Assembly (NCBI RefSeq): GCF_947581785.1
Contig: NZ_CANPVO010000038.1
Span: 117,049-181,048 of the forward strand
DNA length: 64,000 nt
From: Candidatus Palauibacter polyketidifaciens
GTDB lineage: Bacteria; Gemmatimonadota; Gemmatimonadetes; Palauibacterales; Palauibacteraceae
Direction: 5' to 3'
The notes beneath the pieces were generated by a model. It had not been told where the DNA came from. It saw nothing but the letters and a program-made list of their open reading frames with translations, and searched no databases. The number at the start of each line of letters is the position of its first letter. Position 1 is the stretch's first letter. Of this stretch, positions 1-8,720 are shown piece after piece. A program made the translations under genes and the position numbers.

Positions 1-103
1 CGCAACCGCCACGCCCGCGCAACCAACACCGGCCGTTCCGCATATTCCGTCGCACAACTCGGACGCCTCGAGTTTCGCTTGGATCGACCCGCACATCCTA
101 GTC

Positions 104-129
104 GTTATCGTGCTTGAATGTTCGATAAC
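104..129. promoter_or_regulatory. 7-bp inverted repeat GTTATCG-N12-CGATAAC in the low-GC leader upstream of the XRE/ImmA gene; candidate operator
   Basis: Palindromic arms read directly (104-110 and 123-129). Sits ~60 bp upstream of the HTH regulator start. Local GC is far below the window average. Confidence 0.3.
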
Positions 130-186
130 AGCACGGTAGATTTGAACGGAGACGGCAAGGGTGAAGAGAGGGATTACTGACGAGGG

Positions 187-1467
187 GTGACGCGCATGAT
201 CGACCCGGTGCGATTGGCGGAGCGACTCCGCGAGGCGCGCGAGGCGCACGGCTTGAGCCAGAAGGAAGTCGCCGAGGCGCTGGACGTGCCCCGCTCGGCG
301 GTGAGCAAGATCGAGAGCGGCCGACGCGCCGTCTCGACGTTGGAACTCACGAGAATGGCTGACCTGTACGCCCTCTCCGCCTCGTTCTTCCTCTCGGACG
401 AGGGGGAACGGCGGAGCGAAGACCTGGCCCATGTCCTCCTGCGGGCCCTTCCCGAAACCCGAGAGGATCCGCAAGTCGCGCACGCCGTGCGCTCCAGCGT
501 GTTGCTGTGCCGGGAGGGTGCCTCGCTTCGGCGACTTCTGGGTCGGGCCGTTGAACCGACGGTCCCCAGTTACGCCGCACGGACCGGATCCACGAGCGAT
601 GCGATTCGGCAGGGAGAGGCCGTCGCCCGGGAGGAGCGGCGCCGCCTCGGACTCGGCGATGTTCCAATCCGGAGCGTGGCCGGACTCATCAGTGATCAAG
701 GTATCTGGGCCGCGGCCACCGGATTGCCCGACGGCCTGTCCGGGCTGTTCGTGAACCACCCGGATGTCGGTTTCGCCGTTCTGGTCAACCGGCGGCATGG
801 CGAAGCTCGACGGCGATTCTCCTACGCGCACGAGTACGCACACGTCCTGTTCGACCGCGACCGTACGATCACAACGTCGCGCCGTGACAACGCCTCCGGG
901 CGTCTGGAGACGAGAGCCAACGCCTTCGCGGCGGCATTTCTCATGCCGCCGGGCGGTGTCGCCGAGCAGCTCGAACGAATGGGCAAGGGACGCCCGAGCC
1001 GGAACGCCCAGGCCATCTTCGATGTCGCCAACGATTCCGCGATCACGGCGGAGATCCGCACCCGGCCGGGATCCCAGGAGCTCACGTACGCGGACGTGGC
1101 CGTCCTGGCGCGACATTTCGGCGTCAGCTTCGAGGCGGCGGTTTGGCGGCTCAAGAGTCTGAAACACACGTCCGCATCCGAATCCGCCGCTCTGATCGAG
1201 CAGAAGAACATTGGAAATCGGTACATCCGGATGCTGGACCGGAGCCCGCACGACGGGGCTTGGGACCCGGACGCGCCCGAAGGCGTCTCCGCCCGCGGCG
1301 TGGGGGCCGGTCACGACCGGGAGCTGCGCGGCCAACTCCTCCGCCTCGCAATCGAGGCGTTCCGCCGGGAAGCGATCTCGCGCGGACGGCTGCTCGAGAT
1401 CGGTCGGAGACTCGACATCGCCGGCGACGACATGCTCGACGTCGCGATGGCCGCCCGGCCTTGCTGA
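187..1467 (+). CDS. XRE-family HTH fused to an ImmA/IrrE (COG2856) zinc metallopeptidase domain
   Basis: The N-terminus (LSQKEVAEALDVPRSAVSKIESGRRAVSTLELTRMADLY) is a classic XRE HTH. The HEYAHVLFD segment gives the HExxH zinc-peptidase motif of the ImmA/IrrE family. 426 aa. Confidence 0.8.
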   Translation: MTRMIDPVRLAERLREAREAHGLSQKEVAEALDVPRSAVSKIESGRRAVSTLELTRMADLYALSASFFLSDEGERRSEDLAHVLLRALPETREDPQVAHAVRSSVLLCREGASLRRLLGRAVEPTVPSYAARTGSTSDAIRQGEAVAREERRRLGLGDVPIRSVAGLISDQGIWAAATGLPDGLSGLFVNHPDVGFAVLVNRRHGEARRRFSYAHEYAHVLFDRDRTITTSRRDNASGRLETRANAFAAAFLMPPGGVAEQLERMGKGRPSRNAQAIFDVANDSAITAEIRTRPGSQELTYADVAVLARHFGVSFEAAVWRLKSLKHTSASESAALIEQKNIGNRYIRMLDRSPHDGAWDPDAPEGVSARGVGAGHDRELRGQLLRLAIEAFRREAISRGRLLEIGRRLDIAGDDMLDVAMAARPC

Positions 1468-1496
1468 TTCGAGAGCGCCCGCTGCGGGGCGTCGTT

Positions 1497-2414
1497 GTGG
1501 CGGACACATGCGTGCTGCTGAACTTCCTCCAGATCGACCGTATGGACCTGATCGGAGCCCATCCGGATGCGTTCATGGCCACGGACCATGTGGCAGCCGA
1601 GATCACAGACCTCGCGCAGCTCGAGCGCTACGAAGAGGCCCGCCGAGCGGGTTTCGTCGCGGAAGAGCACGTCACCCACCCGGCCGAGCTGGAGATCTTC
1701 CTTCGTCTCGAAGGTTCAGGACGCCTCGGCGCAGGAGAACGATCTGCCATCGCGGTCGCCCTGAATCGCGGCTACCGTCTCGCAACGGACGACAACAAGG
1801 CCATCAAGCGGGCGGCGCGGGAGGCGGCCGTGGCCTCGCGGGAACTCCGTTTCGTCCGCACGGAAGACATCGTGACGGAACTGATCCAGCACGGAGCGCT
1901 GACGATCGCGGCGGCCGACGAGATGCTCACCGACTGGGCGGCGAACCATCGGAGGGTGGCGCAGCGCGTCAGCGAAGGGGGACACGACATCCCGGAGCCA
2001 GTTGCCCGTCGTCGGTTCGAGCGAAGCTGGGACAATTTCGTCTCGTTGTACCGCCCCATTGCAGACGAATGGCAGGTCTACGACACTTCGAGCCGGTCCC
2101 CAATCCTGGTCGCCGCCTCGGAGCGTAACGACATCCTGCCGCTCCTTCCCAGCGGCTGGCGCATCCGAGAGTTGCCGACCGCGGTGGACGCAGACCGGCG
2201 GGACCTCTCGGACGATCCCACAAGGAGAAGCGCCATGACGGAGGACAAGAAGCAGGCTCCGGACAGATTCCCGGAGGGAGAGCCTTCGATACAGAACGTG
2301 ATGATCGCCTTGAGACAGGCGCGGGACGACGCGCTGGCGCGCGCGGCAGCCGTTAGGCGAGGGGAAGCCGAGGCCGCGCGGGCCGAGAATGCGACATCCA
2401 CCGCCGAGAACTGA
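1497..2414 (+). CDS. PIN-domain protein with a C-terminal segment resembling the tail of zeta-toxin/COG4185-type ATPases (no P-loop)
   Basis: The PIN acidic residues are in place: VVADTCVLLNF, AAEITD, GAGERSAIAVALNRGYRLATDD and RTEDIV. The C-terminal RRVAQRVSEGGHDIPEPVARRRFERSWDNF resembles the conserved tail of zeta-toxin-like ATPases; this is from memory, not a search. The ORF frame opens right at the stop of the upstream gene (TGA 1465-1467). The start is uncertain: CTG at 1464 or GTG at 1497. Confidence 0.55.
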   Translation: MADTCVLLNFLQIDRMDLIGAHPDAFMATDHVAAEITDLAQLERYEEARRAGFVAEEHVTHPAELEIFLRLEGSGRLGAGERSAIAVALNRGYRLATDDNKAIKRAAREAAVASRELRFVRTEDIVTELIQHGALTIAAADEMLTDWAANHRRVAQRVSEGGHDIPEPVARRRFERSWDNFVSLYRPIADEWQVYDTSSRSPILVAASERNDILPLLPSGWRIRELPTAVDADRRDLSDDPTRRSAMTEDKKQAPDRFPEGEPSIQNVMIALRQARDDALARAAAVRRGEAEAARAENATSTAEN

Positions 2415-2423
2415 TATGGAGCG

Positions 2424-3389
2424 ATGAGTACAGAAAACGTTGTCATCATCGGCTCGGGCCCCGCCGCCTGGACGGCGGCAATTTATGCGGCCCGGGCGAA
2501 CCTGAATCCGCTCGTGTTCGAAGGTGCGGGGAGCCGCACGATGATCCCGGGTGGGCAGCTTATGTTCACAACTGATGTGGAGAACTATCCCGGTTTCCCC
2601 GAAGGGGTTAGCGGCATCGACATGATGTTGGACTTCAAGAAGCAGGCGCTACGTTTCGACACGCGCGTGTTCACCGAGGACATCGTGGAGGTCGACTTCT
2701 CGAGCCGACCCTTCCGCCTGCGCTCGTCCGGGAAGCAGGAGGTGCTCGCGGAGACCGTGATCGTGGCCACGGGTGCCAACGCGCGCTGGCTCGGCGTGCC
2801 GGGCGAGGAGCGGCTCGCGCAGAGCGGCGGCGGGGTGTCCGCGTGCGCGGTGTGCGACGGCGCCCTGCCCGTCTTCCGGGACCAGGTCCTCGCCGTCGTG
2901 GGAGGCGGCGACAGCGCGATGGAGGAGGCGCTCTACCTCACGAAGTTCGCGAGCGAGGTGCTGCTCATCCACCGGCGCGACGAACTGCGGGCGTCGCAGA
3001 TCATGCAGGAGCGGGCCCTCGCCAGCGACAAGATCCGCTTTCTCTGGAACCGGACTGTGGAGGAGGTGTTCGGGGACGACGCGATCACCGGCCTCCGCCT
3101 TCGCGACACGGTGACGGGCGAGGCGTCGGAGGTCGAGGTGGGCGGGATGTTCGTGGCCATCGGCCACATCCCCAACACGGCGTTCCTGCAGGGCCAGGTC
3201 GACCTCAAGGAGAACGGCTACGTCGACATGCCCACGCCGTGGCGCACGGACACGAACGTGCCCGGAGTGTTCGCGGCCGGCGACGTCATGGACGACTACT
3301 ACCGGCAGGCCGTCTCGGCGGCGGGCACCGGCTGCATGGCCGCCCTCGACGCCGAACGCTTCCTCGCCCACAACGGCGCCGCCGGCTGA
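2424..3389 (+). CDS. trxB: thioredoxin-disulfide reductase
   Basis: The FAD-binding N-terminus [19 protein letters not shown], the redox-active CAVCDGA motif and GVFAAGDV are all present. 321 aa. Confidence 0.9.
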
Positions 3390-3445
3390 CCGCGGCCCGA
3401 TCGCTCTGCGCCTGTCTGGCGAGCGCCGGGCAACGAATCACCGGA

Positions 3446-4975
3446 TTACCAGAAGATGATGTAGAGGACGGCGGCGCCCGCGATAACGCCTCCGGCCCAG
3501 AGTCCTGCGCGGGGAGCGGGCGTCAGATCCACTCCGTCCGCGGCCCGGGGCAGCCGGCGCGGGGCATCGAGCGGGCGCGCGCGCGTCACGAGGACGATGT
3601 AGGCGCCGATCGCGAGGAAGGTGATCGCCATGTGGTGGAGGAACGCGACCTCCGGCAGCAGCCACAGGAGGAGGCCGTAGACGGGGATCCCGAGCAACAT
3701 GCCGCCGAAGGCCGCGGCGGGCGGCGTGCGCGGCGCGAAGATGCCGAACAGGAACGCGGCCACGATCCCCGGTGAGATGAACCCCCAGAACATCTGGATG
3801 TACTCGAACACGCTCGGCGCGCGGGCCACGACCGGCGCCCACAGGCACGCCACCACGACGAGCACCCCCGTCGTCACCCGTCCCACCACCATGAGGCGCC
3901 GCGATGACGCCTCGGGCCGCAGGTGCCGCTTGTAGAGGTCCACGCTGAAGATCGTCGCCGCCGAGTTCAGCATCGAGTCGAGCGAACTCATCACGGCCCC
4001 GAACAGCGCCGCGAACATGAGGCCCGTCAGCCCGGCGGGGAGGAGTTCCCGCATCATCACGGGATAGGCCTGGTCCGGGTTCGTCACCTGATCCGCGAAC
4101 AGCTCCGCCGCCATGATCCCGGGAAAGATGATGATGAACGGGATGAACAGCTTGATGAAGCCCGCCAGGAAGAGCCCCCGCTGCCCGTCCGCCAGGCTGC
4201 GCGCCGCCAGCGTGCGCTGCGTGATGAACTGGTTCAGTCCCCAGTAGAAGATGTTGGGGATCCACAGGCCGCCGATGAAGACGGCGACCCAAGGCATCTC
4301 CGGGTGGTTCCACGGGAGGACGGTGTGGAGCTTTCCGTCCGCCGCCTCGAGGAAGGGGCCGATGCCGCCCATGGCCCGGAACCCCAGCACGGTCACGAGC
4401 ACGCCGCCGAGGAGGAGCGCCACGCCCTGGAGGAGGTCGGACCACACGACCGCTTTCAGTCCCCCGTAGATCGTGTACCCGCCCGCGAGCACGCCGATGA
4501 GCCAGGTGCCGGTCCCCGTGTCGAGGCCGAAGATCGACTCCAGGGCGAGCGCGCCCGAGTACAGCACGGTCGCGAGGGCCACGAGCACGTACGCCGCGAG
4601 GATGAACGCCGCCATCAGCGTGCGCGTACGCACGTCGTACCGGAACTCGAGATATTCCGGGATGGTGTAGATCCCCGCCGCGAGGAACCGGGGCAGGAAG
4701 AAGAGTCCGACGAGGACGAGGGTGACGGCCGCCATCCACTCGTAGCTCGCGATCGCAAGCCCGATGTCGTAGCCCCGCCCCGCCATCCCCACGAAATGCT
4801 CGGTGGAAATGTTCGAGGCGATGAGCGAGAAGCCGATCAGCCACCACGGCAGGTTGCGCCCGGCGAGGAAGTACCCGGCCGCGTCCCGCCGCCCCCGCGA
4901 GGCATACAGCGACACCCCCACGACCAGCAACAGAAAGCCCGCGAACGCCGCAACGTCGAGCGGCCGAAAGTTCAC
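3446..4975 (-). CDS. sodium:solute symporter (SSS) family transporter
   Basis: A multi-TM protein with an SSS-type N-terminus (YFLAGRNLPWWLIGFSLIASNISTEHFVGMAG). 509 aa. Confidence 0.85.
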   Translation of the reverse strand: MNFRPLDVAAFAGFLLLVVGVSLYASRGRRDAAGYFLAGRNLPWWLIGFSLIASNISTEHFVGMAGRGYDIGLAIASYEWMAAVTLVLVGLFFLPRFLAAGIYTIPEYLEFRYDVRTRTLMAAFILAAYVLVALATVLYSGALALESIFGLDTGTGTWLIGVLAGGYTIYGGLKAVVWSDLLQGVALLLGGVLVTVLGFRAMGGIGPFLEAADGKLHTVLPWNHPEMPWVAVFIGGLWIPNIFYWGLNQFITQRTLAARSLADGQRGLFLAGFIKLFIPFIIIFPGIMAAELFADQVTNPDQAYPVMMRELLPAGLTGLMFAALFGAVMSSLDSMLNSAATIFSVDLYKRHLRPEASSRRLMVVGRVTTGVLVVVACLWAPVVARAPSVFEYIQMFWGFISPGIVAAFLFGIFAPRTPPAAAFGGMLLGIPVYGLLLWLLPEVAFLHHMAITFLAIGAYIVLVTRARPLDAPRRLPRAADGVDLTPAPRAGLWAGGVIAGAAVLYIIFW

Positions 4976-4982
4976 ACTTGTC

Positions 4983-5201
4983 TCACGTCATCGCGTCGCG
5001 GAGGGTCTGCCTCGCTTCTTCGTGCCGGCTGGCGGGCACGCGGAGGACTTTTGCGGCCGCCGTCGGGCCCCAGGACACGGGTGCGAACTCCCCTTCGACC
5101 CTGAAGGGGATGTCGTCCGCCTCGAGGGCGAGCCGCGCCGCGAGGAATTCGCTCTCATCCCACGCCTCGAACACGCGGACCATGTCCTCGCTCCGTGTCA
5201 C
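4983..5201 (-). CDS. small DUF2007-like (putative signal-transducing) protein co-transcribed upstream of the SSS transporter
   Basis: 72 aa. The pattern VRVFEAWDESEFLAARLALEADDIPFRV...KVLRVPASRHEEARQTL matches the DUF2007 consensus as I recall it. It lies 8 bp upstream of the transporter start. Confidence 0.45.
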   Translation of the reverse strand: MTRSEDMVRVFEAWDESEFLAARLALEADDIPFRVEGEFAPVSWGPTAAAKVLRVPASRHEEARQTLRDAMT

Positions 5202-5211
5202 GTCGCCCCCA

Positions 5212-5682
5212 TCATGATGAAGCAGGGATCTCTTCGATGTCGGCGGTCCAGGTCACCTTGATCGCGCCCTCGAGCGAGCGGGCGGTGGGGCACTTCGCGC
5301 CGTGGCTGGCGAGCGCGCGCTCCACCGTCTCCCGGGCCTCGGCGGGGATTCGGAGCCGGTAGTGGACGATGATCTCCTCCAGCGTGGGCATGCGGTCGCG
5401 GAGGCGGTTGATCCCCTCCACTTCGGCGGCGATGTCGTCGGGGGCCAGGCGGATGCCGCGCACTTCCAGTGCGCCGTTGAGCGTGCCCAGCATTCAGGCG
5501 CCGGTCGCGGCCACCTGGTAGTCGACGGGGAGCGGCAGATCTTTCGCGTCGATCCGGTAGTGGGACTTGATGGGTCCGTGGACGCCGAAGTCGATCTCGG
5601 TCCCCTCTTCGAGGCGGGCCCGGCGATGCACGCCTCCGATCTTTTCGAGACGCGCGCGGGCAGTGTAGAACGGTTCGGACAT
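5212..5682 (-). CDS. OsmC/Ohr-family peroxidase interrupted by an in-frame TGA (5494-5496) at the position of the first catalytic Cys; selenoprotein candidate or pseudogene
   Basis: Two adjacent same-frame ORFs (5494..5754 and 5212..5493) are separated only by TGA. The joined protein carries the OsmC C-terminal motif HGAKCPTARSLEGAIKVTW. The TGA falls in the segment QVAATGA-[TGA]-MLGTLNGAL, which aligns with the OsmC first-Cys motif AAhAAC-FsMaL. AGGAGA lies 7 nt upstream of ATG 5682. Confidence 0.6.
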
Positions 5683-5778
5683 GATGTGCTCTCCTTTACG
5701 AAGCCGCCTTCCCTGTCGCATTTTCGGGCGGCGAGATTCGGGCGGGACGCGCAAACGGAACGATCAAGAGCAACCAGC

Positions 5779-7596
5779 ATGACGTCAACCCGCGACAGGA
5801 ACCGCCTTCCGGGAGGAGCGGCGGGCCGCATCGTGGCCGTGATCCTCCTGGCAGGCGGGATCGCGGCCTGCGGGCGGGGTTCGGCCGAGACGGCGGACAC
5901 GGCCCCGCCCAGCGACCTCTCGGCGCTCAGCGACCGCTTCTGGGACGCCTACCTCTCCTGGAACCCGCTGCAGGCAACCTACCTGGGAGAACACCGCCTC
6001 AGCGACCGCGTTCGCGACATCTCGCCGTCGGGCCGCAACAATCGCCGCCGCGAGGTTCGTGCCCTCACGGATGCCCTCGCAGCCATCGACCGTCCGTCGC
6101 TGCCCCCCGAGGAGCGGCTGACATTTCTCGCACTTGACCATCAGCTCTCGGCGGAAGTTGCCGAGCAGACGTGCGACCTGGAGGTGTGGGTGGTGGACCA
6201 CCGCGAGGGGTTCCAGCTCGACTTCCTCAACATCGTGGGCGCCCAGCCGCTCGAAACGCCGGTCGACGGCGAGCGCATGATCCGGCGCTGGAATGCGTTC
6301 GCGGACTATATCGACGACTACATCTCGAACCTCCGCACCGGTCTCGAGACGGGACGGGTCGCGGCACGCCCGTCGGTGAACCGCACGATCGTACAGCTCG
6401 AAGCCCTCCTCGAACGACCCGTGGAGGAATGGCCCATTTACGCCCCGGCGGGGACGCGGCTCGATGCATGGCCCGAGGGAACGCGCCACGACTTCCGGGC
6501 CGGGATCCGCGAGGCCGCCTCCGAGCGCATTCAGCCGGCGTATGTGAGACTCCGTGACTTCCTGCGCGACGAACTCTATCCACACTCGCGCACGGGCGCG
6601 GAGGTCGGACTCTCCAGCCTGCCGGGCGGCAGCGACTGCTACGAGGCGATGATCCGCACCTTCACGACGCTCGAACTGACGCCGGCGGAGATCCACGCGC
6701 GCGGCCTGGCGGAGCTGGAGAGGGTCCACGAGGAGCTGCGGACCCTTGGGCGGGAAGCTCTCGGCGCGGCCGATCTGAAAGAGCTTCAGCAGCGGCTGCG
6801 GTCGGACCCGGAGATGTACTTCCGCTGGCCGGGCGAGATCGTGCAGCAGGCGGAGGAGGCCTACGCGCGGGCGGCCCTCATCATGCCCGACTGGTTCGGC
6901 ACGCCGCCCCGGACGGAGATGGTGATCCGTCCGATCCCGCTGTACGAAGCGCCGCAGAGCCAGCTCGCATACTACCGCGAGCCCGCGCCGGATGGGTCGC
7001 GTCCCGGCACGTACTACGTGAACACGTACCGGCCCGAGATCCGGCCCAGGTATCAGGCCGACGTCCTGAGCTTTCACGAGGCGATTCCGGGGCACCACCT
7101 CCAGACCGCGATCGCCCAGGAGGTCGAGGGTCTGCCCGAGTTCCGAAAGCACCTCGGATCGGTCGCCTTCGTCGAGGGATGGGGGCTGTACGCGGAGCGG
7201 CTCGCCGATGAAATGGGTCTCTACGTGGACGACCTGAGCCGCATCGGCCTCGCCTCGTACGATGCCTGGCGGGCCAGCCGGCTCGTCGTCGACACCGGCA
7301 TCCACGCCTTCGGCTGGACGCGGGAGGAGGCGATCGACTTCGTCCGCGAGAACACGCTGCTCGCCGAAGTGAACATCGAGAACGAGGTGGACCGTTACAT
7401 CACTTCGCCCGCCCAGGCGCTCACCTACAAGCTGGGGCAGCTCGAGATCTCGCGGCTGCGCCGGGAGGCTGAGGCCAGGCTCGGGGAGGCATTCTCCATC
7501 GCGGAGTTCCACGACCGGGTGCTGGAGAACGGCGCGCTGAGCCTCCCCGCACTCGGCGACGCGATCGAGAGCTGGCTTGAGGAGACCGCCAGCTAG
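5779..7596 (+). CDS. DUF885-family lipoprotein (putative metallopeptidase-like)
   Basis: Signal peptide plus lipobox (LLAGGIAAC). The DUF885-type motif FHEAIPGHHLQ is present. ~605 aa from ATG 5779; the upstream in-frame extension to 5302 is not coding. Confidence 0.75.
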   Translation: MTSTRDRNRLPGGAAGRIVAVILLAGGIAACGRGSAETADTAPPSDLSALSDRFWDAYLSWNPLQATYLGEHRLSDRVRDISPSGRNNRRREVRALTDALAAIDRPSLPPEERLTFLALDHQLSAEVAEQTCDLEVWVVDHREGFQLDFLNIVGAQPLETPVDGERMIRRWNAFADYIDDYISNLRTGLETGRVAARPSVNRTIVQLEALLERPVEEWPIYAPAGTRLDAWPEGTRHDFRAGIREAASERIQPAYVRLRDFLRDELYPHSRTGAEVGLSSLPGGSDCYEAMIRTFTTLELTPAEIHARGLAELERVHEELRTLGREALGAADLKELQQRLRSDPEMYFRWPGEIVQQAEEAYARAALIMPDWFGTPPRTEMVIRPIPLYEAPQSQLAYYREPAPDGSRPGTYYVNTYRPEIRPRYQADVLSFHEAIPGHHLQTAIAQEVEGLPEFRKHLGSVAFVEGWGLYAERLADEMGLYVDDLSRIGLASYDAWRASRLVVDTGIHAFGWTREEAIDFVRENTLLAEVNIENEVDRYITSPAQALTYKLGQLEISRLRREAEARLGEAFSIAEFHDRVLENGALSLPALGDAIESWLEETAS

Positions 7597-7655: not shown

Positions 7656-8720
7656 ATGTGTTCTCCCGGCAAGACCCCGCGGCTCCGGGCCTTCCTGCGC
7701 CCCGGAGCGGAGCCCGGCGGCTTCGCGCTGCCCTCGGCCATGCTCACGCTTCTGCTCGTATCGCTCATGGCGGCGGGCGGCTTTCTCCTGACCTGGATCG
7801 ACGGACAGTCCGCCCGCGCCTTCGCGCGTTCCACCGAGGCCTTCTACGTGGCCGAGAGCGGACTCGCGACGGCGCTCGCGCTCGCCGAGATGCCGAACCC
7901 TTCCGTGCCGCCCCTCACGCTGGGCGTTGGAACCGCGACGGTCTCCTTCGAGCCGCTCCTCGAACTTCGGCGCGGGGAGACCGTGTACCGCGTCGAGTCC
8001 CGGGGACAGGTGGCGTCCGGCGACGCCACCTTCGCACGGTCCGTGGGACAGCTCCTCTGGGTGGCCGGACCGCCACGGGTGCCCGGCGCGCTCGTCCTCG
8101 TCGGGAGCGCGGGCGCCATCCCCCCGAAGGGGACGATCTCGGGGCTCGATGCGTTCGGGAGTGCCTGTCCGCAACAGCCCTCGCCGATCGCGGGCGTCGC
8201 GTACTGGGGCGGGCCGGCGCCGGCGCCCGATTCGGCGTTGATGATCTCGGGGTCGCCAACGGCACGATCGATGCCGGCCGATGTGTCCGTCACGGCGGAA
8301 ACGGGGATCCGCTGGACGGAACTGCTCGCGGACTGGGGCCCGCGTCCCGACGCGGTAGTACCGCCCGATCCGTGGCCGTCTCCGGGAGCCGATTCGTCCT
8401 ATACGCGGATTTCGGGATCGGGGACGCTCGGTCCGGGCTCCAGCGGGCGCGGCGCCCTCGTGGTGGAGGGCGACCTGACGCTCGACGACGGTTTCGCCTG
8501 GCGGGGGCTCATCCTCGTGGGCGGCGCCCTGCTCCTGAACGGGGACATCTCGATTCAGGGGAGCGTGGCAAGCGGGCTCGCGGGCGGCGTGGGGGTGGCG
8601 GCGGACTTCGGCGGCCACCGCGTCGATCTGCGCTTCAGCGCCTGCGCCGTTGCGGCGGCCGCGGAGCGACTCACCGCGCCGGCCGCGGCCATCCCCGGCA
8701 CGTGGTACGAAGTCTGGTAG
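7656..8720 (+). CDS. hypothetical protein with a PilX-N-like (type IV pilus-associated) N-terminal domain
   Basis: The N-terminus GGFALPSAMLTLLLVSLMAAGGFLL...AFARSTEAFYVAESGL resembles the PilX_N domain. The C-terminus has GALVVEGDLTLDDGFAWRGLILVGGALLLNG, typical of pilus-associated proteins. The opposite strand carries Arg-rich shadow ORFs. Confidence 0.4.
   Translation: MCSPGKTPRLRAFLRPGAEPGGFALPSAMLTLLLVSLMAAGGFLLTWIDGQSARAFARSTEAFYVAESGLATALALAEMPNPSVPPLTLGVGTATVSFEPLLELRRGETVYRVESRGQVASGDATFARSVGQLLWVAGPPRVPGALVLVGSAGAIPPKGTISGLDAFGSACPQQPSPIAGVAYWGGPAPAPDSALMISGSPTARSMPADVSVTAETGIRWTELLADWGPRPDAVVPPDPWPSPGADSSYTRISGSGTLGPGSSGRGALVVEGDLTLDDGFAWRGLILVGGALLLNGDISIQGSVASGLAGGVGVAADFGGHRVDLRFSACAVAAAAERLTAPAAAIPGTWYEVW

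What the first reader, a model, noticed from the sequence alone, without database searches (positions are those of the whole stretch)
1464..2414. Unusual fusion: PIN nuclease domain followed by a zeta-toxin/COG4185-like C-terminal tail without a P-loop
The PIN core ends at about residue 120. The remaining ~190 aa contain RRVAQRVSEGGHDIPEPVARRRFERSWDNFVSLYRPIADEWQVYDTS. From memory, this closely resembles the conserved C-terminal substrate-binding segment of zeta-toxin-like/AAA_33 kinases (R-x-RV-x-GGH-x-[IV]P-x3-[IV]-RRR[FY]-x-RS-x-N), yet there is no Walker A here. The protein may be a domain-shuffled toxin (PIN in place of the kinase core) or a decayed fusion.
Basis: inference. Interest (0 to 1): 0.5.

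Follow-up and report, generated by a model that had tools for sequence, protein, structure and literature searches.

The report
Two toxin genes fused by deletion
The odd "PIN nuclease plus kinase tail" protein is real, but it is the scar of a 434-base deletion that joined two neighbouring toxin genes of a toxin-antitoxin-like cassette and removed the kinase's ATP-binding half, so it is a gene remnant and not a new designed toxin.

Summary
ORF 1461/1497..2414 (+) encodes a PIN-like domain (DUF3368/COG2405 type) joined at residue 164 to the last 154 residues of an AAA_33/Zeta_toxin-family protein, and it has no Walker A motif.

Comparative data explain the origin. In close relatives (L001-L006, Ca. 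Palauibacter ramosifaciens, Ca. P. rhopaloidicola) the same locus holds three separate genes upstream of trxB:
- HTH+Peptidase_M78 (RmrA-like), 423 aa
- PIN, 198 aa
- AAA_33/zeta-like, 264 aa

The window lacks 434 bp (L001 about 7899-8332, 3-nt microhomology TCG). That deletion removes the conserved PIN C-terminal tail and kinase residues 1-110, including GPNGAGKT, and restores the reading frame.

The allele is not an assembly artefact. The identical junction occurs in six other assemblies and two strain backgrounds. NCBI lists it as hypothetical protein WP_310784431.1 (Ca. P. polyketidifaciens).

No other PIN+tail fusion turned up: none among the 138 word-index hits against 5.8 billion sequences, none in the best 150 of 1.84 billion representatives. 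The same cassette has decayed independently in other Palauibacter genomes.

"Domain-shuffled toxin" is not.

A side finding is more interesting than the fusion. The last 59 codons (2235-2414) form a nested in-frame ORF with a conserved Shine-Dalgarno sequence. This ORF also exists as a free-standing gene elsewhere.

The parts
187..1467 (+). Upstream gene of the cassette: XRE-type HTH plus Peptidase_M78 (ImmA/IrrE, COG2856) protein of 426 aa, with HEYAH zinc motif at 829-843. It is an RmrA-like antitoxin/regulator and is intact.
   Evidence: Pfam HTH_3 2.2e-15 and Peptidase_M78 4.5e-16. PADLOC RmrA 3.7e-30. The motif was located. The same gene precedes PIN homologues in other phyla.
1461..1951 (+). 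PIN-derived part of the chimeric ORF (codons 1-163/164 of a 198-aa DUF3368/COG2405-type PIN gene). The conserved D15, E47, E93, D111 and D136 are retained. The conserved C-terminal tail RFxxxxxxFxxLL is missing.
   Evidence: Collinear with L001 5948-7898 at 93.4% identity. tblastn with the intact PIN matches residues 1-164 of 198. AF2 pLDDT is >90 and the fold matches are PIN.
1949..1951 (+). Deletion junction. The 3-nt microhomology TCG is shared by both parental flanks. Relative to L001, 434 bp (about 7899-8332) are absent.
   Evidence: The two blastn segments overlap by 3 nt. The identical junction occurs in L007, L023-L025, L029 and L030.
1950..2234 (+). Remnant of the AAA_33/Zeta_toxin-family gene: P0002 residues 111 to about 160 (the motif RRVAQRVSEGGHDIPEPVARRRFERSW and the last strand EWQVYDTS), followed by a poorly conserved linker. 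Walker A and the ETTLSG region are deleted.
   Evidence: No amino-acid difference from P0002 residues 111-264, and 99.4% nt identity to L001. Pfam hits on intact P0002. AF2 pLDDT is 57-66 for residues 165-220 and <50 for 221-267.
2223..2229 (+). Shine-Dalgarno-like AGGAGAA, 5 nt upstream of the internal ATG at 2235. It is written in Arg codons (AGG, AGA) that are rare in this genome.
   Evidence: GGAGA at -12..-8 and the ATG are invariant in 11 Palauibacter copies although the linker around them varies. AGA accounts for 3 of 106 and AGG for 0 of 106 Arg codons in three neighbouring genes. An SD plus start is also present in the Longimicrobiales homologues L016 and L018.
2235..2414 (+). Nested in-frame small ORF of 59 aa (MTEDKKQAPDRFPEGEPS...), equal to the C-terminal helical unit of the AAA_33 protein. 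It is probably translated on its own and is still intact in the window.
   Evidence: Free-standing 59-65-aa genes with this sequence exist (P0129-P0135). In L033 it is the only gene between the TPR gene and trxB, and L031/L032 carry two copies. AF2 gives one long helix at 277-316 with pLDDT 78-95. A 59-aa representative matches residues 259-316 only.
2424..3389 (+). Thioredoxin-reductase-like gene (trxB), the conserved downstream anchor of the variable locus. Context only.
   Evidence: Pyr_redox_2/3 hits on the syntenic genes. tblastn finds it next to or a few kb downstream of the module in 9 of the 15 related loci compared (L001, L007-L012, L014) and in the window.

Best explanation
The 317-codon ORF is a chimeric remnant made by a single 434-bp deletion inside a three-gene cassette of the RosmerTA / 'HTH-COG2856 + toxin' kind.

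The ancestral locus, still intact in sister lineages, reads: RmrA-like HTH+M78 protease-repressor, then a PIN-like nuclease (DUF3368/COG2405 type, 198 aa), then an AAA_33/Zeta_toxin-family P-loop kinase-like protein (264 aa), then trxB.

Shown:
- An illegitimate recombination or slippage event between two TCG triplets (preceded by an imperfect ACCAT match) removed the last 34 codons of the PIN gene and the first 110 codons of the kinase gene.
- 434 is 2 mod 3, which cancels the +2 frame offset between the two overlapping genes, so the result is one open frame.

Inferred consequences:
- The kinase part cannot bind ATP. Walker A and the following core strands are gone, so it is dead as an enzyme. 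It is a floppy appendage.
- The PIN core (all five strands and the conserved acidic residues) is intact. It has lost a C-terminal tail whose R164-F165...F172 are invariant in the family, and hydrophobic residues are replaced by charged ones (F165R, F169R, F172E, L175H). It is most likely crippled or attenuated.
- The upstream RmrA-like gene remains intact. So does the nested 59-codon ORF at the 3' end, with its own conserved ribosome-binding site.

The locus is therefore one of several decay states of a mobile, recombining toxin module. It is not a new domain architecture under selection.
For: Synteny and deletion:
- Six contigs carrying P0002 show M78(423)-PIN(198)-AAA_33(264)-trxB-SSF.
- Window 1-1951 aligns to L001 5948-7898, and window 1949-5696 aligns to L001 8330-12061.
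- tblastn maps PIN residues 1-164 and AAA residues 105-264 onto the window.

Real allele:
- It is 100% identical over 2.9-8.4 kb in L007, L023, L024 and L025, which come from separate samples.
- The same junction occurs in a 97.7%-identical strain background, L029/L030.
- NCBI protein WP_310784431.1 is this sequence.

Uniqueness of the architecture:
- All hits other than the fusion's own cluster cover only about 50% of the query.
- In the exhaustive search, the best-matching stretch of every PIN-type hit ends at or before the junction (residues 160-168 for full-length ones), apart from two that run on to 172 and 178. The best stretch of the tail-type hits starts at 156-164 or further downstream.

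Family of the parents:
- Intact P0002 scores 46.2 bits for AAA_33 and 25.6 bits for Zeta_toxin.
- The N half has a PIN fold: Foldseek hits 1y82, 5x3t, 5ecw and 5h4g, target-normalised TM 0.56-0.68.
- HTH-COG2856 + COG2405 PIN is described as a predicted three-component TA system (PMC2701414, PMC5499597).
- RmrA antitoxins pair with diverse toxins, including PIN-like ones (PMC10440598).

Structure:
- Fusion C half has pLDDT 40-66 except for the terminal helix.
- The intact PIN has a packed tail at 163-179 with pLDDT 85-89, which the fusion lacks.

Recurrent decay:
- L014 has separate deletions in both the PIN and AAA genes. L015 has an internal 261-bp deletion. L008 has a 1-bp indel. L013 lacks the AAA N-terminus.
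Against: - The PIN catalytic core is fully retained and modelled with high confidence, so residual nuclease activity cannot be excluded.
- The ORF has stayed open, and differences between the two fusion-bearing backgrounds are few and mostly synonymous (3 synonymous against 1-2 nonsynonymous). This is compatible with some constraint, although the numbers are far too small to test, and the low divergence is better explained by recent recombination.
- No expression, read-level or biochemical data were available.
- The tail alone gives no significant profile hit.
Confidence: 0.85

Rival explanations
1. The fusion is a functional, selected neo-toxin. It would be an active PIN nuclease whose new C-terminal appendage (kinase remnant, linker and helical unit) provides regulation or partner binding, still controlled by the upstream RmrA-like protein.
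For: - The PIN core and acidic residues are intact with pLDDT >90.
- The M78 gene is intact and translationally coupled through the TTGCTGA overlap.
- The allele is shared by two strain backgrounds, and the frame is open over 317 codons.
- By chance the tail contains RRRFERSWDNFVSLY, which MAFFT aligns with the lost PIN motif RFxxxxxxFxxLL.
Against: - The architecture was found in one species-level lineage only.
- The invariant F165 and F172 are lost.
- The C half is low-confidence or disordered.
- The same cassette shows other plainly destructive deletions in sister genomes.
- An in-frame outcome has a 1-in-3 chance. An open 155-codon frame at 69% GC has a probability of about 0.05 by chance, and here the frame is simply inherited.
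- The low divergence of the gene is shared with the intact allele in L001 and reflects recombination.
Confidence: 0.1
2. The junction is an assembly or sequencing artefact: a mis-join of two adjacent genes in a metagenome-assembled genome.
For: The source is evidently a MAG-type assembly of an uncultured sponge-associated Gemmatimonadota lineage. Deletions can be created by assemblers at repeats.
Against: - The identical junction appears in seven assemblies (the window plus six others) from different samples, projects and assemblers (ENA, Logan, NCBI), including a strain with 2.3% flank divergence.
- No repeat longer than 3 nt lies at the breakpoints.
Confidence: 0.02
3. The fused gene is ancestral, and the two-gene arrangement in relatives arose by insertion of 434 bp.
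For: None beyond formal possibility.
Against: - The 434 bp encode exactly the conserved C-terminus of a PIN family that is widespread as 170-aa proteins, together with the conserved P-loop N-terminus of AAA_33 proteins.
- Separate genes occur across phyla.
Confidence: 0.01

Closest known systems
RosmerTA / 'HTH-COG2856 (ImmA/IrrE, DUF955, Peptidase_M78) + toxin' three-component toxin-antitoxin and phage-defence modules (Makarova 2009 PMC2701414; Matelska 2017 PMC5499597; Ernits 2023 PMC10440598)
   Same: An HTH+M78 protein (PADLOC RmrA 3.7e-30) lies directly upstream of, and overlaps, a PIN-like gene of the COG2405/DUF3368 type. The same pair is found in an alphaproteobacterial MAG and another metagenome contig next to recombinase, primase and NACHT genes.
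   Different: In Palauibacter a second toxin-like gene (AAA_33/zeta-like) follows the PIN. In the window both toxin genes are truncated and fused by a deletion. No experiment has addressed this particular pair.
Zeta toxin / PezT / AAA_33 P-loop kinases (Pfam PF06414, PF13671), including EzeT with a cis-acting antitoxin domain (named in PMC10532202 and PMC4803016)
   Different: - The window protein keeps only residues 111-264, so it has no Walker A and no core sheet.
- Profile search of PDB sequences finds only generic P-loop matches and no zeta toxin.
- The Gemmatimonadota proteins carry an extra C-terminal helical unit that canonical roughly 190-aa relatives such as L020 lack.
Chromosomal toxin-antitoxin decay: toxin-inactivating deletions that leave orphan antitoxins (general knowledge of TA evolution)
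   Same: The toxin coding capacity is destroyed while the putative antitoxin or regulator genes (M78, and possibly the 59-aa ORF) stay intact. Several independent decay states exist in sister genomes.
   Different: Here one deletion hits two adjacent toxin genes at once and happens to restore the frame. This produces a misleading two-domain 'hypothetical protein' in RefSeq.

Membership tests
PIN domain-like superfamily, COG2405 / DUF3368 (PF11848) group | PIN alpha/beta/alpha fold with a five-stranded parallel sheet | tested here: met
   The AF2 model has strands at 10-13, 37-41, 66-69, 106-108 and 130-132 with pLDDT >90. The leading Foldseek PDB hits (the top 17, and most of the 50 listed) are PIN proteins (VapC toxins, FitB, Nob1 and others), probability 1.0, target-normalised TM 0.55-0.70.
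PIN domain-like superfamily, COG2405 / DUF3368 (PF11848) group | Conserved acidic active-site residues | tested here: met
   D15, E47 and E93 are invariant, and D111 and D136 are conserved in at least 90% of 34 family members. All are present in the fusion. Catalysis itself was not tested.
PIN domain-like superfamily, COG2405 / DUF3368 (PF11848) group | Match to the Pfam model PF11848 | tested here: inconclusive
   Precomputed tables list PF11848 for the fusion and its homologues. My hmmscan against the current Pfam-A gave no hit at E<=1 for the fusion, P0121 or P0029.
PIN domain-like superfamily, COG2405 / DUF3368 (PF11848) group | Complete domain including the conserved C-terminal tail (H163-R164-F165...F172..LL) | tested here: not met
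   The tail is deleted. F165 and F172, invariant in the family, are replaced by R and E.
Zeta_toxin / AAA_33 P-loop kinases | Walker A motif GxxGxGK[ST] | tested here: not met
   Absent from the 317-aa product. It is present as G8PNGAGKT15 in intact P0002 and lies in the deleted 434 bp.
Zeta_toxin / AAA_33 P-loop kinases | Significant match to PF06414 or PF13671 | tested here: not met
   The fusion and its C half give 0 families at E<=1. The intact parent P0002 scores AAA_33 46.2 bits (cutoff 27) and Zeta_toxin 25.6 bits (cutoff 22.3). The tail therefore derives from a family member but is not itself a member.
Zeta_toxin / AAA_33 P-loop kinases | P-loop NTPase fold | tested here: not met
   Residues 165-267 have pLDDT 40-66. 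No P-loop kinase appears among the Foldseek hits.
   No COG profile library was available.
RosmerTA-like (RmrA + RmrT) module | HTH + ImmA/M78 protease antitoxin gene adjacent to a toxin gene | tested here: met
   PADLOC RmrA 3.7e-30. Pfam HTH_3 and Peptidase_M78. HEYAH motif at 829-843. The stop and start overlap with the PIN gene.
RosmerTA-like (RmrA + RmrT) module | Toxicity of the toxin, neutralisation by RmrA, and phage defence | not testable with these tools
   This requires experiments.

The most novel reading that the evidence does not exclude
What survives the deletion may not all be junk. The last 59 codons (2235-2414) may be a separately translated gene nested in frame inside the zeta-like kinase gene: an internal-start product that acts as the kinase's own antitoxin or regulator. 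It would be cis when fused and trans when made from the internal ribosome-binding site.

On this reading the window lineage has disarmed both toxins while keeping both neutralisers (RmrA and the 59-aa peptide). The Gemmatimonadota AAA_33 proteins would then represent an undescribed 'toxin with an in-frame nested antitoxin' layout.
Probability: 0.3. Interest if true: 0.55.

Novelty: new member of a known kind. Interest (0 to 1): 0.2.

Why it matters
The fusion itself matters mainly as a caution. A RefSeq "hypothetical protein" with an apparently new PIN+zeta architecture is a deletion scar. Domain-architecture surveys of toxins would miscount it as domain shuffling.

It also gives a clean, dated example of how chromosomal toxin modules are disarmed. 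One microhomology-mediated deletion inactivates two adjacent toxin genes while the regulator stays. The locus upstream of trxB is a small hypervariable islet that recombines between Palauibacter lineages.

The by-product could be of real interest to the toxin-antitoxin field if confirmed: a conserved internal ribosome-binding site and start codon inside a zeta-like kinase gene, whose 59-aa product also exists as a free-standing gene.

Tried and rejected
1. Direct profile hits for the tail. Pfam and NCBIfam scans of the fusion, of residues 1-151 and of the last 157 residues gave nothing useful. Pfam on the 59-aa and 104-aa C-terminal pieces also gave nothing.
2. PDB sequence searches. P0002, the AAA_33 family profile A5 and the intact PIN gave only generic P-loop matches or noise. 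No zeta toxin and no PIN was found by sequence.
3. Custom alignment. An alignment of the fusion with PIN homologues plus trimmed kinase tails (A4) was misaligned by MAFFT and was discarded. The structure job used A1, in which the kinase N-termini are spuriously placed on PIN columns. The PIN half still modelled well.
4. Long direct repeats at the breakpoints as a cause of the deletion: none were found, only 3-nt microhomology.
5. Promoter and terminator scan and composition profile of 1-6000: nothing informative.
6. A dN/dS test for selection on the fusion: too few substitutions (4-5), and the test is confounded by recombination.
7. Context lookups. Gloeobacter glr4256 (P0052) and the 317-aa form are not on record in the contig index.
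8. Upstream partners of AAA_33 genes in Longimicrobiales. ORF lists in high-GC DNA were too noisy to read without more profile searches.
Full report
**1. What is in the sequence**

The frame 1464-2414 is open. The first in-frame start is TTG 1461, inside the motif TTGCTGA that overlaps the stop (1465-1467) of the upstream gene 187-1467. The same overlap is used by the 198-aa PIN genes of relatives, and NCBI's 317-aa protein WP_310784431.1 (Ca. Palauibacter polyketidifaciens, 'hypothetical protein') is exactly this product. Gene callers elsewhere started at GTG 1497 (305 aa) or GTG 1512 (300 aa). In the structural model those starts would remove the first beta-strand.

The upstream gene encodes an XRE-type HTH plus a Peptidase_M78 (ImmA/IrrE) domain with an HEYAH motif. 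It matches PADLOC's RmrA models at 3.7e-30.

**2. The two halves**

A search of 5.8 billion clustered proteins gave 138 hits. Only the query's own cluster covers the full length. All others cover about half:
- 170-198-aa proteins with precomputed PF11848 (DUF3368) hits match the N half.
- 258-275-aa 'AAA family ATPase' proteins (PF13671 AAA_33, often also PF06414 Zeta_toxin) from Gemmatimonadota match the C half.

P0002 (264 aa) has the same amino-acid sequence as the window product from RRVAQRV to the end. P0002 passes Pfam's thresholds for AAA_33 (46.2 bits, residues 3-126) and Zeta_toxin (25.6 bits, residues 3-148), and it carries G8PNGAGKT15. The tail alone hits no Pfam or NCBIfam model. 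Its family origin is established by descent, not by a profile match.

**3. Origin of the fusion**

Six contigs that encode P0002 show the gene order HTH-M78 (423 aa), PIN (198 aa), AAA_33 (264 aa), trxB, then SSF on the minus strand. This is the window's synteny with one gene more.

blastn splits the window into two segments against L001:
- Window 1-1951 aligns to L001 5948-7898.
- Window 1949-5696 aligns to L001 8330-12061.

So 434 bp are missing, with a 3-nt overlap (TCG). The left parent reads ...GAACCATCG|TTTCAAG and the right parent reads ...GACCATGTTGTTCG|GAGGGTG.

The PIN and AAA_33 genes overlap by 4 nt, and the AAA_33 frame is offset by +2. Because 434 is 2 mod 3, the deletion restores one frame. 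The product is PIN residues 1-163/164 joined to AAA_33 residues 111/112-264.

The deleted segment encodes two things:
- The PIN C-terminal tail, consensus HRFKLKIxSFxxLL, with R164, F165 and F172 invariant in 34 sequences.
- The kinase N-terminal 110 residues, including Walker A and the DFAFETTLSG segment.

**4. Not an artefact, and not a recurring architecture**

The junction is identical in several independent assemblies:
- L007 (Logan SRR10996928), L023 (SAMN13943212), L024 (SAMEA7724353) and L025 (ERZ27277388) are all 100% identical to the window over 2.9-8.4 kb.
- L029 and L030 (ENGE20 samples) carry it too. Their flanks differ from the window by 2.4-3.8% (M78 about 3.7%, trxB 2.4-2.7%), while the fused gene differs by only 0.4-0.5%.

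An exhaustive phmmer search of 1.84 billion representatives found 2255 hits at E<=0.001. Among the best 150, the best-matching stretch of the PIN-type hits ends at or before the junction (query residues 160-168 for the full-length ones), apart from two that run on to 172 and 178. The tail-type hits start at 156-164 or further downstream, and none covers both halves. In the GTDB species representatives, Ca. P. ramosifaciens (L008) and Ca. P. rhopaloidicola (L009) have the two genes separate.

**5. Structure**

AlphaFold2 model of the fusion:
- Residues 10-165 have pLDDT >90 and form five strands and the flanking helices.
- Residues 165-220 have pLDDT 57-66.
- Residues 221-267 are below 50.
- Residues 277-316 form one long helix with pLDDT 78-95.

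Foldseek against the PDB returns mainly PIN proteins at the top of the list (1y82, VapC 5x3t, 5ecw, 5h4g, FitB, Nob1; target-normalised TM 0.55-0.70). It returns no P-loop kinase.

The intact PIN model (P0004) has the same elements, plus an ordered loop at 163-171 and a short helix at 172-179 (pLDDT 85-89) that the fusion lacks. In the fusion these positions become charged (F165R, F169R, F172E, L175H; sequence comparison).

So the kinase part is certainly enzymatically dead. The PIN part is probably folded but lacks a conserved structural element. Whether it keeps activity is inference.

**6. What the intact cassette is**

PIN homologues from an alphaproteobacterial MAG (L026) and another metagenome contig (L028) lie immediately downstream of 408-414-aa HTH_3+Peptidase_M78 genes. 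They sit next to recombinase, primase or NACHT genes and have no AAA_33 gene.

The literature covers this pairing:
- HTH-COG2856 fusions associated with PIN toxins were proposed as a three-component TA system (PMC2701414).
- COG2405/DUF3368 is explicitly listed among the PIN groups co-transcribed with HTH and DUF955 (PMC5499597).
- ImmA-type RmrA antitoxins with diverse RmrT toxins, including PIN-like ones, form the RosmerTA defence family (PMC10440598).
- The PIN also matches PADLOC candidate PDC-S70 at 2e-8.

The cassette is therefore a known kind, with a zeta-like gene added in Palauibacter.

**7. The locus is a decaying, recombining islet**

Other Palauibacter genomes show other states:

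| Locus | State |
|---|---|
| L012 | M78 followed directly by AAA_33, no PIN |
| L010, L011 | AAA_33 without M78 or PIN |
| L013 | AAA_33 lacking its N-terminus |
| L014 | About 145-bp deletion in PIN and about 119-bp deletion in AAA_33 (called protein P0012 lacks the P-loop) |
| L015 | In-frame 261-bp internal deletion, plus a second partial copy |
| L008 | 1-bp indel that rewrites the first strand of the kinase |
| L033 | No M78, PIN or kinase at all |

Divergence is mosaic:
- The AAA_33 remnant is 99.4% identical to L001, while the flanks are 93-96% identical.
- L001's flanks are L009-like (98%), but L009's AAA_33 allele is only 73% identical.

This indicates exchange of the module by recombination. 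It also explains the low divergence of the fused gene without invoking selection. Between the two fusion-bearing backgrounds there are 3 synonymous and 1-2 nonsynonymous differences, too few for any test.

**8. Side finding: a nested small ORF**

Within the AAA_33 gene, and so within the fusion, an ATG at 2235 is preceded by AGGAGAA (2223-2229).
- In 11 Palauibacter copies, GGAGA at -12..-8 and the ATG are invariant. The surrounding linker is variable and the encoded residues differ (RR, GR).
- The AGG and AGA codons used are rare here: 3 of 106 and 0 of 106 Arg codons in three neighbouring genes.
- Longimicrobiales homologues at 52-57% identity keep an SD plus start at the same place: L016 AGGAGA-6 nt-ATG and L018 GGAGGAGAA-3 nt-ATG. 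It is weaker in L017 and L021.
- The 59-aa product corresponds to the confident terminal helix.
- It exists as a free-standing gene. P0129-P0135 are 59-65 aa. In L033 it is the sole gene between the TPR gene and trxB, with its own GGAGGAGA-GTG. In L031 and L032 two copies flank an unrelated AAA_16 gene.
- A 189-aa Chloroflexota relative (L020) lacks the unit altogether.

I read this as an internally initiated partner peptide of the kinase, possibly antitoxin-like. This is a hypothesis supported only by comparative evidence.

**9. Verdict**

The feature is a lineage-specific deletion scar in a known type of toxin-antitoxin or defence cassette. Interest in the fusion itself is low. The nested ORF deserves a separate look.

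Noticed in passing
window 2223-2414; also L001 8604-8795 and L008-L018: A nested in-frame 59-codon ORF lies at the 3' end of the AAA_33/zeta-like gene. It has an invariant GGAGA Shine-Dalgarno sequence, written in rare Arg codons, and a start codon conserved from Palauibacterales to Longimicrobiales. The same peptide is a free-standing 59-65-aa gene in L031, L032 and L033. It may be an internally translated antitoxin-like partner.
   Followed up: partly
L014 5861-7163; L015 5775-8196; L008 near 6232-6260; L013 5827-6492: The same M78-PIN-AAA_33 cassette has decayed independently in other Palauibacter genomes. L014 has separate deletions in both the PIN and AAA_33 genes. L015 has an in-frame 261-bp internal deletion plus a partial duplicate. 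L008 has a 1-bp indel at the kinase start. L013 has an N-terminally truncated kinase.
   Followed up: partly
L001 7411-7460 and 7933-7985 (window 1464-1513 holds the first copy): An imperfect direct repeat of about 50 nt (protein LIRERPLRGVVV / MIRERPVPWVTV) flanks the PIN gene. L012 has M78 followed directly by AAA_33 with no PIN. The PIN therefore looks like a cassette inserted between, or excisable from between, M78 and AAA_33.
   Followed up: partly
window 187-3389 compared with L001, L008, L009, L029 and L030: Divergence is mosaic. The PIN and AAA_33 parts are 97-99.8% identical among the window, L029/L030 and L001, while the flanking M78 and trxB genes are 93-97.6% identical. L001's flanks are L009-like (98%), but L009's AAA_33 allele is only 73% identical. 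The toxin genes are exchanged by recombination between lineages.
   Followed up: partly
window 3390-3445 (gap between trxB and the SSF transporter gene); L030 4401-5059; L031 5162-5820: Other strains carry a VapBC pair (PF01850 PIN plus RHH_1) inserted between trxB and the SSF gene. The window lacks it. This is a second variable toxin-antitoxin site a few hundred bases away.
   Followed up: no
window 1249-1300 (M78 protein residues 355-371): There is a cluster of nonsynonymous differences between the window and L029/L030 in the C-terminal region of the RmrA-like protein (H355D, G357E, A358G, W359R, P361R, P364R, E365D, A369T, G371S). The rest of the gene changes mostly synonymously. This is a hypervariable patch of unknown meaning.
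   Followed up: no
window 2010-2054 (fusion residues 184-198, RRRFERSWDNFVSLY): The kinase-derived tail happens to contain R-F-x6-F-x2-L, the same spacing as the PIN C-terminal motif lost in the deletion. MAFFT aligns the two. AF2 gives this stretch only pLDDT 57-66, so nothing shows that it substitutes for the lost tail.
   Followed up: partly
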